A stretch of 33,164 nucleotides of DNA, taken from the IMG/VR virus record IMGVR_UViG_2534681774_000032, positions 1-33,164 of that record, one strand, 5' to 3'. Below the pieces are notes generated by a model. It ran no database searches. It was not told the origin of the DNA and worked only from the letters and a program-made list of their open reading frames with translations. A program made the position numbers and the translations under genes. This document shows positions 9,692 through 10,158 of the stretch, piece by piece (position 1 is the stretch's first letter; the number at the start of each line of letters is the position of its first letter). Source of the stretch: a virus (lineage: Duplodnaviria; Heunggongvirae; Uroviricota; Caudoviricetes).

Positions 9692-9902
9692 TTTTATATT
9701 GGCGAGGTGACGGGAGTTAAGTAGAATTGCTGCGGGTGCTTGAGGCTGTCTGCCTCGGGCATGCCACCGTAAGGCAGACAGAGAAAAGCCCCAGTTAACA
9801 TTACGCGTCCTGCAAGACGCTTAACATTAATCTGAGGCCCAATCTATGCTTCACAAACGTAGGTTAGCCTCTTACGCGCCGAAAGGCAAGGAGAAGCAGG
9901 CT

Positions 9903-10058
9903 ATGAAGCAGCAAAAGGCGATGTTAATCGCCCTGATCGTCATCTGTTTAACCGTCATAGTGACGGCACTGGTAACGAGGAAAGACCTCTGCGAGGTACG
10001 AATCCGAACCGGCCAGACGGAGGTCGCTGTCTTCACAGCTTACGAACCTGAGGAGTAA
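9903..10058 (+). CDS. hokD: Hok/Gef-family type I toxin (HokD/RelF-like, 51 aa)
   Basis: MKQQKAMLIALIVICLTVIVTALVTRKDLCEVRIRTGQTEVAVFTAYEPEE matches remembered HokD; RBS AAGGAG; in-frame upstream extension from 9846; structured leader upstream and terminator downstream. Confidence 0.85.
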   Translation: MKQQKAMLIALIVICLTVIVTALVTRKDLCEVRIRTGQTEVAVFTAYEPEE

Positions 10059-10126
10059 GAGACCAGGCGGGGGAGAAATCCCTCGCCACCGCTGATGTGT
10101 CAGGCATCCTCAACGCACCCGCACTT

Positions 10127-10158
10127 AACCCGCTTCGGCGGGTTTTTGTTTTTATTTT
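10127..10158 (+). terminator. Rho-independent terminator downstream of hok
   Basis: AACCCGC-TTCG-GCGGGTT hairpin followed by TTTTGTTTTTATTTT. Confidence 0.65.

What the first reader, a model, noticed from the sequence alone, without database searches (positions are those of the whole stretch)
9692..10158. Hok-family type I toxin with structured leader; antisense Sok-like RNA expected
The 51-aa product matches HokD/RelF. The ORF track shows an in-frame 70-codon extension (from 9846), and the 150-bp leader has extensive fold-back complementarity (for example GAGGCTGTCTGCCTCGGG and GGCAGACAGAGAAAAGCCCC), typical of hok mRNAs controlled by antisense RNA and processing. Here it neighbours the SIR2-like gene rather than relBE, so the toxin may be part of the same accessory island.
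Basis: partly seen in the sequence, partly recalled or inferred. Interest (0 to 1): 0.4.

Follow-up and report, generated by a model that had tools for sequence, protein, structure and literature searches.

The report
Intact prophage hok/mok/sok toxin-antitoxin module
This is an ordinary, complete copy of the long-known hok/sok toxin-antitoxin cassette (a small membrane toxin held in check by an antisense RNA), carried by a defective lambda-like prophage of E. coli and not functionally tied to the neighbouring SIR2 gene.

Summary
Window 9699-10154 holds a complete hokD-type hok/mok/sok type I toxin-antitoxin cassette.

- **Toxin:** the 51-aa product is identical to E. coli HokD (Pfam HOK_GEF, E = 1.2e-23).
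- **mok:** the in-frame 70-codon "extension" is the mok reading frame.
- **mRNA:** the leader matches Rfam RF01794 (116 bits). Its 5' end (tac) pairs with a 3' element (fbi), and covariation across 62 homologues supports this.
- **Antisense RNA:** a Sok gene lies on the minus strand, with promoter TTGCCT-17-TAACCT and a 71-nt RNA running 9854->9784.
- **Precedent:** the cassette is 93% identical to hokW/mokW/sokW of phage 933W/Sp5. SokW is annotated there, and the same -10 hexamer was mutated experimentally to unmask toxicity (PMC8621323).
- **Abundance:** the cassette occurs in 4726 of 5426 complete E. coli genomes. K-12 hokD is a copy cut off at window 9889 by relBE.
- **SIR2 link:** not specific. 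The SIR2 gene occurs in only 46 genomes. The slot upstream of hok is a hypervariable cargo site (47 flank types in 100 loci, some of them known defence systems), and hok is its constant right flank.

Verdict: already known, low interest. Two side observations: the Sok 5' tail region is the most variable stretch of the cassette, and an unannotated 29-aa ORF travels with it.

The parts
9699..9727 (+). hok promoter: -35 TTGGCG (9699-9704), 17-nt spacer, -10 TAGAAT (9722-9727)
   Evidence: Consensus scan. The -10 TAGAAT is conserved in nearly all E. coli-type homologues, and a TTGGCG or TTTGCG-like -35 sits at 16-17 nt.
9734..10154 (+). Full-length hok mRNA, about 420 nt. The start is inferred; the end is at the terminator.
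   Evidence: Rfam RF01794 model position 1 aligns to 9734. The sequence begins GGGUGCUUGAGG, as in the hokW leader given in primer YO-351 of PMC8621323. MFE is -173.7 kcal/mol, z = -6.0.
9734..9745 (+). tac element (5' end, GGGUGCUUGAGG). It pairs with fbi in the full-length RNA and with 9786-9792 (AAGCCCC, ucb-like) in the 3'-shortened RNA.
   Evidence: Folds, pair list. The helix is 92.5% paired in 62 sequences, and U4-A is replaced by C-G in 11 of them.
9746..9781 (+). 5' hairpin of the leader.
   Evidence: Helix 2 is 88.4% paired, with 4 pairs changed on both sides.
9784..9854 (-). Sok antisense RNA (predicted, 71 nt): a 14-nt single-stranded 5' tail, a long hairpin, then UUUU
   Evidence: Positional homologue of the annotated sokW misc_RNA of phage 933W. 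Both fold the same way, z = -5.2. The consensus fold on 62 homologues shows 4 pairs with compensatory changes.
9861..9889 (-). Sok promoter: -35 TTGCCT (9889->9884), 17-nt spacer, -10 TAACCT (9866->9861)
   Evidence: This is the commonest form among homologues, 55 of 105. It matches hokW probe YO-597 with 1 mismatch, located in the spacer. The -10 is the hexamer destroyed in the 'pro-less' mutant of PMC8621323. The plus-strand bases opposite the A (2nd position) and the final T of the -10, and opposite TTGCC of the -35, are invariant in 62 sequences. It falls below the threshold of the consensus scanner.
9834..9837 (+). mok Shine-Dalgarno GAGG, inside the Sok-complementary region
   Evidence: Invariant in all 62 aligned homologues, G101 A102 G103 G104. 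It lies 8 nt upstream of the mok AUG.
9846..10058 (+). mok reading frame: 70 codons, in frame with hok and sharing its stop
   Evidence: The AUG is conserved in 104 of 105 homologues. The frame varies: 84 in frame (68-70 aa), 13 stop at the hok start (19 aa), 7 in the +1 frame. mokW is annotated identically in 933W.
9888..9893 (+). hok Shine-Dalgarno AAGGAG. It overlaps the Sok -35 on the other strand.
   Evidence: It is conserved. The K-12-type truncated hokD begins to align here, at 9889.
9903..10058 (+). hok (hokD-type) toxin gene, 51 aa
   Evidence: Pfam HOK_GEF 1.2e-23. PHROG 251. Identical to WP_000813254.1 HokD. 92% identical to HokW.
10041..10044 (+). UACG at Tyr47: the TadA A-to-I editing motif, which would recode Tyr to Cys
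   Evidence: TACGAA is invariant in 62 homologues, T308-A313. The motif and the editing of hokD are described in bioRxiv 10.1101/2025.08.07.668861. Editing was not tested here.
10108..10120 (+). fbi (fold-back inhibition) element CCUCAACGCACCC, complementary to tac with one bulged C
10127..10154 (+). Intrinsic terminator of the hok mRNA: a 7-bp GC-rich stem followed by a U run
   Evidence: Homology to other loci ends at about 10145-10160.

Best explanation
Window 9699-10154 is an intact hokD-type hok/mok/sok type I toxin-antitoxin cassette. It sits in the early-right region of a defective lambdoid (Qin/Rac-like) E. coli prophage. The mechanism below is inferred from the anatomy here and from the established R1 hok/sok and Sp5 hokW/sokW models.

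1. A constitutive promoter makes a stable hok mRNA of about 420 nt. Its 5' end (tac) is clamped to a 3' element (fbi), so the full-length RNA is neither translated nor bound by Sok.
2. Slow 3' trimming removes fbi. tac then re-pairs with an upstream box at 9786-9792, and the mok ribosome-binding site and the Sok target are exposed.
3. Hok is translated only through coupling to mok translation.
4. The unstable 71-nt Sok RNA is transcribed convergently from TTGCCT-17-TAACCT. It pairs through its single-stranded 5' tail with the mok start region, blocking mok (and therefore hok) translation and triggering duplex cleavage.
5. When Sok synthesis stops, through loss of the element or through prophage induction, the stable mRNA pool is translated. 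Hok inserts into the inner membrane and kills or lyses the cell.

Shown here: every sequence element, the conserved and covarying RNA structure, and near-identity to a tested locus. Inferred: transcription, processing, translational coupling, and the biological role. The role is most likely selfish stabilisation of the prophage. A hokW-like boost of lysis on induction is less plausible because this prophage has an IS66-disrupted terminase.
For: - **Toxin:** Hok/Gef family, identical to HokD. HokD itself was a toxic control in bioRxiv 10.1101/2025.08.07.668861.
- **Leader:** matches Rfam RF01794 at 116 bits.
- **tac-fbi pairing:** present in the MFE, and it switches to tac-ucb when the 3' end is removed.
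- **Structure:** 86.4% paired against 35-44% for slid controls. 53 pairs have changes on both sides, and 0 of 500 shuffles reach that number.
- **mok:** the SD is invariant. The AUG is conserved while the mok frame and length vary, as expected if translation through the region matters rather than the peptide.
- **Sok promoter:** the hexamers are the same as in sokW, where mutating the -10 unmasked toxicity and sokW RNA was seen by northern blot.
- **Precedent:** sokW, mokW and hokW are annotated in 933W, and the cassette is 93% identical overall. The two Sok RNAs fold identically.
- **Discrete module:** the cassette has sharp homology boundaries and is found in 4726 of 5426 E. coli genomes, 79 phage records and 635 plasmid records.
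Against: - No expression data exist for this copy.
- The Sok promoter is a weak match to consensus (4/6 and 3/6) and was missed by the consensus scanner.
- Many chromosomal hok loci, including all five in K-12, are reported to be inactive (my own knowledge of Pedersen and Gerdes 1999, not re-read here). Subtle inactivating changes therefore cannot be excluded from sequence alone.
- Hok here has Tyr47 rather than a hard-coded second Cys, so full toxicity may depend on TadA editing.
Confidence: 0.9

Rival explanations
1. The locus is a decayed, non-functional hok relic, like the K-12 chromosomal hok loci: the sequence is recognisable but no longer expressed or regulated.
For: The prophage is defective, with an IS66 element splitting the terminase gene. 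The K-12-type hokD is a truncated relic of the same cassette. One co-resident copy in another genome (L005) has a disrupted leader. The Sok promoter is a weak consensus match.
Against: Every element is intact and in register: promoter, tac, fbi, mok SD and AUG, hok SD and ORF, Sok promoter, Sok hairpin and terminator. The Sok promoter hexamers are identical to those of the functional sokW. The toxin is identical to a peptide shown to be toxic.
Confidence: 0.07
2. hok and the SIR2-like gene form one functional accessory or defence unit, for example with Hok as effector or addiction module of a SIR2 system.
For: The two are adjacent and co-oriented, 370 bp apart. The slot upstream of hok often carries defence genes: Kiwa, Septu, a PD-T4-6-like kinase, PD-Lambda-2_C-like, PDC-S15 and PDC-S39.
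Against: SIR2 is in 46 genomes and the hok cassette in 3925. The identical Hok sits next to 47 different flank types. The homology break lies between the two genes, and a 150-bp segment to the right of SIR2 (9549-9700) occurs without SIR2 in about 1300 genomes. hok has its own promoter and terminator. A survey found hok not enriched near defence systems.
Confidence: 0.03
3. This rival concerns the role only. The cassette serves the phage at induction, as hokW-sokW does in Sp5: loss of Sok on induction lets Hok permeabilise the membrane early and increases phage release. It is not a stabilisation (post-segregational killing) module.
For: hokW-sokW, 93% identical, doubled Sp5 release after mitomycin C, and sokW RNA vanished on induction. 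Here hok lies in sense orientation within the early-right gene block, between the cro/replication genes and the Q-like gene. My inference is that induced rightward transcription would run head-on into the Sok promoter.
Against: This prophage cannot make particles, because the terminase is split by IS66. The same cassette also sits in other places: elsewhere in 933W and on about 90-100-kb non-mobilizable plasmids. That argues for a context-independent selfish module. No data exist for this copy.
Confidence: 0.3

Closest known systems
hokW/mokW/sokW of Stx2 phages 933W and Sp5 (VT2-Sakai); AF125520.1; Takada et al. 2021, PMC8621323
   Same: The cassette is 93% identical in DNA over 476 aligned columns, and Hok is 92% identical. 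The architecture is the same: an in-frame 70-codon mok, a 71-nt antisense RNA at the same position, the same Sok promoter hexamers TTGCCT/TAACCT, the same tac and fbi sequences, and the same Sok fold.
   Different: The last 7 residues of Hok differ (TAYEPEE against VDYESEK). The Sok 5' tail differs at 3 of its 14 nt, with a further change in the first stem pair, and the sokW probe has 4 mismatches here. The terminator and downstream flank differ. The position in the phage genome also differs: early-right region here, another region in 933W.
hokD (relF) of E. coli K-12, Qin prophage
   Same: The Hok protein is identical (WP_000813254.1). So are the downstream genes rem and ydfU and the 3' UTR with fbi and terminator, at 98.8% identity from window 9889 onward.
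   Different: The K-12 copy is cut off at window 9889. It keeps only the hok SD, ORF and 3' UTR. It lacks the hok promoter, tac, the mok start, the Sok target and the Sok promoter, and relBE occupies the upstream slot. The window holds the complete form of which K-12 hokD is a remnant.
hok/sok (parB) of plasmid R1, the family paradigm
   Same: Same family and logic. The leader matches the shared Rfam model. The tac-fbi end pairing, the mok-coupled translation layout and the convergent Sok promoter inside the mok/hok leader are all present.
   Different: In R1, mok is out of frame with hok (my own knowledge). Here it is in frame, as in most chromosomal and prophage copies: 84 of 105, with 7 R1-like +1 frames. 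The host element is a prophage rather than a plasmid.

Membership tests
hok/mok/sok type I toxin-antitoxin family (Pfam PF01848, Rfam RF01794) | Small (~50 aa) hydrophobic Hok/Gef-family toxin ORF | tested here: met
   Pfam HOK_GEF E = 1.2e-23, 82.9 bits against a cut-off of 22. PHROG 251 at 2.8e-33. Identical to HokD.
hok/mok/sok type I toxin-antitoxin family (Pfam PF01848, Rfam RF01794) | Long structured 5' leader homologous to the family's hok mRNA leader | tested here: met
   RF01794 scores 116.2 bits (gathering score 59), covers the full model 1-157 and lies on the hok-sense strand.
hok/mok/sok type I toxin-antitoxin family (Pfam PF01848, Rfam RF01794) | 5'-3' end pairing (tac-fbi) that locks the full-length mRNA | tested here: met
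   A 12-bp helix, 9734-9745 with 10108-10120, appears in the MFE. It is 92.5% paired in 62 homologues with compensatory U-A to C-G changes.
hok/mok/sok type I toxin-antitoxin family (Pfam PF01848, Rfam RF01794) | Overlapping mok reading frame with its own SD, starting upstream of hok | tested here: met
   ORF 9846-10058 with SD GAGG at 9834-9837. The AUG is conserved in 104 of 105 homologues and the SD is invariant in the 62 aligned.
hok/mok/sok type I toxin-antitoxin family (Pfam PF01848, Rfam RF01794) | Translational coupling of hok to mok | not testable with these tools
   Only indirect support: the mok frame and length vary (in frame, +1, or stopping at the hok start) while its start is conserved.
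hok/mok/sok type I toxin-antitoxin family (Pfam PF01848, Rfam RF01794) | cis-encoded antisense Sok RNA (~65-71 nt), with its own promoter, complementary to the mok translation-initiation region | tested here: inconclusive
   The sequence level is met: promoter hexamers, 5' tail, hairpin and U-tail, all positionally identical to the annotated and experimentally detected sokW. Transcription from this copy cannot be tested here.
hok/mok/sok type I toxin-antitoxin family (Pfam PF01848, Rfam RF01794) | 3' processing and refolding that activates the mRNA | not testable with these tools
   In silico, removing the last 47 nt moves tac from fbi to 9786-9792. This is consistent with the model but is not a test.
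hok/mok/sok type I toxin-antitoxin family (Pfam PF01848, Rfam RF01794) | Toxicity of the peptide and its neutralisation by Sok | not testable with these tools
   In the literature, HokD was toxic as a control, and HokW (92% identical) was toxic and neutralised by sokW.
Truncated K-12-type relBE-hokD locus | hok preceded directly by relE, with no leader, mok or sok | tested here: not met
   The window has the full leader. The K-12-type copy aligns only from 9889 onward.
SIR2-based defence system with hok as a component | Consistent co-occurrence of the two genes | tested here: not met
   46 genomes carry the SIR2 gene against 3925 with the cassette. There are 47 flank types in 100 loci.

The most novel reading that the evidence does not exclude
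The stretch 9838-9859 encodes the single-stranded 5' recognition tail of Sok and, on the other strand, the mok start region. It is the most variable part of an otherwise nearly invariant cassette: 17 haplotypes in 67 hokD-type copies, 0.63-0.83 bits per position against about 0 in the hok ORF. Co-resident copies in two genomes each carry three different tails.

This would fit diversification of antitoxin specificity, so that hok/sok modules of competing prophages in one cell do not neutralise each other. That would be an RNA-level 'immunity type', with the hok cassette also serving as the constant right border of a cargo and defence hotspot in lambdoid prophages.

The alternative is plain relaxed constraint. 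Target and antisense are the same DNA, so any change there is self-compensating, and the Mok peptide sequence is not constrained.
Probability: 0.3. Interest if true: 0.45.

Novelty: already known. Interest (0 to 1): 0.14.

Why it matters
For the finding itself, very little. It is a textbook type I toxin-antitoxin cassette, already annotated as hokD in the identical RefSeq sequence. Its full architecture was described for phage 933W, and a 93%-identical copy has been tested experimentally.

The practical value lies in annotation.
- The mok frame and the Sok RNA are not annotated in RefSeq at this locus.
- The Rfam 'sok' model reports the hok-sense strand.
- K-12 hokD can now be read as a 5'-truncated remnant of this complete form.

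Two side observations could be worth a small follow-up: a hypervariable Sok recognition tail, and a hypervariable cargo slot bordered by the cassette that holds Kiwa, Septu, SIR2 and other defence genes.

Tried and rejected
- The consensus promoter scan found the hok promoter but no minus-strand promoter in 9840-9900. The Sok promoter was located by homology instead. It is a 4/6 + 3/6 match, below the scanner's threshold.
- The sokW northern probe YO-592 does not match the window at 3 or fewer mismatches. By eye it has 4, all within the hypervariable tail region.
- A hokW-specific 27-mer was absent from all 137 loci fetched up to that point, so 933W was fetched separately.
- A literature search for 'sokD' returned only irrelevant papers.
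- The SIR2-like protein has no PDB sequence relative at E <= 1, no PHROG or NCBIfam hit, and only weak PADLOC hits (Aga_SIR2, PDC-S21, about 1e-5 to 1e-6). I did not pursue it further.
- The 29-aa ORF has no hit in Pfam, PADLOC, PHROGs or NCBIfam.
- I considered using the lack of G-U pairs in the helix shared by the hok leader and Sok (63 double against 2 one-sided variant cells) as evidence for constraint on both strands. I gave it little weight, because the lower Sok stem uses U-G pairs in a slightly different register.
- I did not test statistically whether co-resident copies differ in Sok tail more than random pairs do. Random pairs already differ about 89% of the time, and only two genomes with three intact copies each were in hand.
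- The first choice of ten cargo proteins for PADLOC was biased towards large unknown ORFs. The broader scan of 78 ORFs from 34 flank types is the fairer picture.

Full report
**What is in the sequence**

The window is a lambdoid (Qin/Rac-like) prophage of E. coli. At this locus it is 100% identical to the chromosome of strain FDAARGOS_1059. The gene order is: integrase, exonuclease, dicB, ydfC/ydfB, a cI-like repressor, cro, a ydaT-like gene, a replication gene, a DUF977/Ren-like gene, the SIR2-like gene, hokD, rem, a DUF968 gene (ydfU-like), rusA, and a Q-like gene (DUF1133).

The ORF at 9903..10058 encodes 51 aa. An in-frame ORF of 70 codons starts at 9846. The 51-aa product matches several libraries:
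- Pfam HOK_GEF, E = 1.2e-23
- PHROG 251 'MokW-like host killing', 2.8e-33
- RefSeq protein WP_000813254.1 'HokD', the same accession as in a K-12-type relBE-hokD locus

**The sense RNA**

A promoter-like site, TTGGCG-17-TAGAAT, ends at 9727. Seven bases downstream the sequence GGGUGCUUGAGG begins. This is where the Rfam model RF01794 starts to align (9734..9908, 116.2 bits, E = 4.8e-26). Note that this model, although named 'sok', matches the hok-sense strand and ends at the hok AUG. It describes the hok leader, not the antisense RNA.

A terminator-like hairpin followed by a T run lies at 10127-10154. Folding gave three results:
- **Full-length RNA (9734-10152).** It has an unusually stable structure, -173.7 kcal/mol, z = -6.0. 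The first 12 nt pair with 10108-10120, with one bulged C. This is the tac-fbi 'fold-back inhibition' helix of the hok paradigm.
- **3'-shortened RNA.** When the last 47 nt are removed, the 5' end pairs instead with AAGCCCC at 9786-9792. This is the kind of refolding the R1 model proposes after 3' processing.
- **Conservation.** I aligned 62 non-redundant homologues (under 97.5% identical to one another) from Escherichia, Shigella, Kluyvera, Pseudocitrobacter, Citrobacter, Photorhabdus, Pantoea, Erwinia and Kalamiella. The window's MFE structure is 86.4% paired in them, against 35-44% when the 3' partners are slid by 1-3 columns. 53 pairs have changes on both sides, against a shuffle mean of 37.2, and 0 of 500 shuffles reach that value. 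The tac-fbi helix alone is 92.5% paired, and its U-A pair is replaced by C-G in 11 sequences.

**mok**

The 70-codon 'extension' is the mok frame. Its SD (GAGG, 9834-9837) is invariant in the 62 aligned sequences. Its AUG is conserved in 104 of 105 distinct homologues.

The frame itself is not conserved. 84 are in frame with hok (68-70 aa), 13 stop at the hok start (19 aa), and 7 run in the +1 frame as annotated in phage Rac. This pattern is what one expects if translation across the hok ribosome-binding site matters and the Mok peptide does not. Phage 933W carries the same in-frame, 70-codon mokW.

**The antisense RNA**

The consensus scan found no minus-strand promoter in the leader. Homology places one there: -35 TTGCCT (9889->9884), a 17-nt spacer, and -10 TAACCT (9866->9861). 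Four lines of evidence support it:
- It is the commonest form among homologues, 55 of 105.
- The plus-strand bases opposite the A (2nd position) and final T of the -10, and opposite TTGCC of the -35, are invariant across the 62 aligned sequences.
- The 933W record annotates a 71-nt SokW antisense RNA. Its position corresponds to window 9854->9784.
- Takada et al. (PMC8621323) studied the same locus in Sp5. They showed that HokW is toxic and that sokW expressed from its own promoter neutralises it. Mutating the sokW -10 unmasks toxicity, and sokW RNA is detectable by northern blot.

Their primer sequences tie these experiments to the window. YO-597 matches window 9862-9891 on the minus strand with a single mismatch, in the spacer. 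YO-421/422 show that the mutated hexamer is the same TAACCT.

The predicted window Sok and SokW fold alike: a 14-nt single-stranded 5' tail, a long hairpin and a U tail, with z about -5. A consensus fold of the 62 antisense sequences keeps the hairpin, with compensatory changes at 4 pairs.

Its transcription from this particular copy is inferred, not shown.

**How common it is, and what K-12 hokD is**

The 467-bp region matches 4726 of 5426 complete E. coli genomes, 3925 of them at 80% coverage or more. The median is 2 copies per genome and the maximum 10. It also occurs in:
- 79 phage records, including Stx phages, mEp460 and Rac, annotated as MokW, HokD, hok/mok or 'gef phage maintenance protein'
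- 635 plasmid records, mostly non-mobilizable; the listed examples are mainly about 90-100 kb

A class of hits begins at query position 198, which is window 9889. These are the K-12-type relBE-hokD loci, which keep only the hok SD, ORF and 3' UTR. The window therefore holds the complete form of which K-12 hokD (relF) is a 5'-truncated remnant.

**Relation to the SIR2-like gene**

The evidence points to hok being the constant flank of a variable cargo slot:
- The SIR2 gene is found at 80% coverage or more in only 46 genomes. The 150 bp to its right (9549-9700) occurs in 1342 genomes.
- Across 135 fetched loci, homology to the window starts at about 9711-9726, or at 9549/9669 in subsets. It ends at about 10145-10160. 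The cassette is thus a discrete module of about 440 bp.
- The 1.5 kb upstream of it falls into 47 unrelated clusters among 100 loci.
- I scanned 77 ORFs from 34 of these flank types, together with the window's own SIR2 protein (78 in all). They include complete Kiwa (KwaA + KwaB) and Septu (PtuA + PtuB), PD-Lambda-2_C-like, a PD-T4-6/mad6-like kinase, PDC-S15, PDC-S39 and methyltransferases. They also include ordinary lambdoid ORFs (DUF551, Ead/Ea22) and metabolic morons (QueH, NUDIX, HAD).

SIR2 is one occupant of that slot and relBE in K-12 is another. A recent survey likewise found hok enriched in prophages but not enriched near defence systems. The SIR2 protein itself gives only a marginal SIR2_2 hit (1e-5) and weak PADLOC hits. 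I did not characterise it further.

**Mechanism and role**

The mechanism in the best explanation is the established R1 and Sp5 model, mapped onto elements that are all present here. Transcription, processing, coupling and killing are inferred.

The invariant UACGAA at Tyr47 fits the reported TadA editing of hokD, which recodes Tyr to Cys.

As to role, hokW-sokW raised Sp5 release about two-fold on induction. This prophage, however, has an IS66-family element inserted in its large terminase gene. A selfish stabilising role, or no current role, is therefore more plausible. My own untested inference: because hok is co-oriented with the early-right genes, induced rightward transcription would collide with the convergent Sok promoter. 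That could explain the unexplained loss of sokW RNA on induction noted in PMC8621323.

**Side observation on variability**

Among 67 hokD-type copies, the hok ORF is almost invariant (0-0.07 bits per position). The stretch 9838-9859 reaches 0.63-0.83 bits and has 17 haplotypes. Most equal-sized control segments elsewhere have 3-7 haplotypes; the segment that includes fbi has 14.

This stretch encodes the Sok 5' tail and, on the other strand, the mok start and first codons. In two genomes with three intact copies each, all three tails differ.

Two readings fit. One is diversification of antitoxin specificity. The other is simple relaxed constraint, since antisense and target are the same DNA. 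I could not separate them.

**Verdict**

This is a real, complete and well-understood element. It is already known and of low interest.

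Noticed in passing
window 9602-9691 (+), SD AGGAGG at 9591-9596: An unannotated 29-aa hydrophobic ORF (VLVLKCALAIAAVVAIYCLAIVLMDRLSD, GTG start) with a strong SD lies between the SIR2 gene and the hok promoter. Its 150-bp segment (9549-9700) travels with the hok cassette in 1342 E. coli genomes. The ORF is open and exactly 29 codons long in all 11 variants seen, with conservative substitutions. It has no hit in Pfam, PADLOC, PHROGs or NCBIfam.
   Followed up: partly
window 9838-9859 (Sok 5' tail / mok start): This is the most variable stretch of the whole cassette among hokD-type copies: 17 haplotypes in 67 sequences, 0.63-0.83 bits per position against about 0 in the hok ORF. 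Co-resident copies in two genomes carry three different tails each.
   Followed up: partly
window ~8132-9548, and the equivalent slot upstream of hok in L003-L135: The slot between the DUF977/Ren-like gene and the hok cassette is hypervariable, with 47 flank types in 100 loci. Its contents include Kiwa, Septu, PD-Lambda-2_C-like, a PD-T4-6-like kinase, PDC-S15, PDC-S39, methyltransferases, QueH, NUDIX and HAD, as well as relBE in K-12 and the SIR2-like gene here. I found no description of this hok-bordered slot in the papers checked.
   Followed up: partly
window 8500-9531 (+): The SIR2-like gene (343 aa; RefSeq calls a 319-aa form) is present in only 46 of 5426 complete E. coli genomes. It gives a marginal Pfam SIR2_2 hit (1e-5) and weak PADLOC hits (Aga_SIR2, PDC-S21). 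It has no PDB sequence relative and no PHROG or NCBIfam family.
   Followed up: partly
window 21030-23365 (-), within 20482-25067: An IS66-family element (HTH transposase ORF, TnpB-like ORF and DDE transposase) is inserted in the large terminase gene. The insertion splits the gpA ATPase domain at about profile position 128, so the prophage is defective.
   Followed up: yes
window 9734-9908 (+): The Rfam family RF01794, named 'sok antitoxin', matches the hok-sense strand and ends at the hok AUG. It models the hok mRNA leader, so automatic annotation from it would place 'sok' on the wrong strand.
   Followed up: yes
window 4423-4474 (-); 14529-14775 (+); 14854-15044 (+): DicF sRNA (72.5 bits), three tRNA genes (Ile, Arg, Arg in the RefSeq record), and the sRNA STnc100 (139 bits) just upstream of the late region.
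   Followed up: no
alignment A1 columns 57-78 with 85-108 (window ~9788-9840): In the leader helix that is also the Sok hairpin, variant cells are almost all double Watson-Crick changes (63, against 2 one-sided). About 70% are one-sided in the other helices. This may reflect constraint on both strands, although the lower Sok stem uses U-G pairs in a shifted register.
   Followed up: partly
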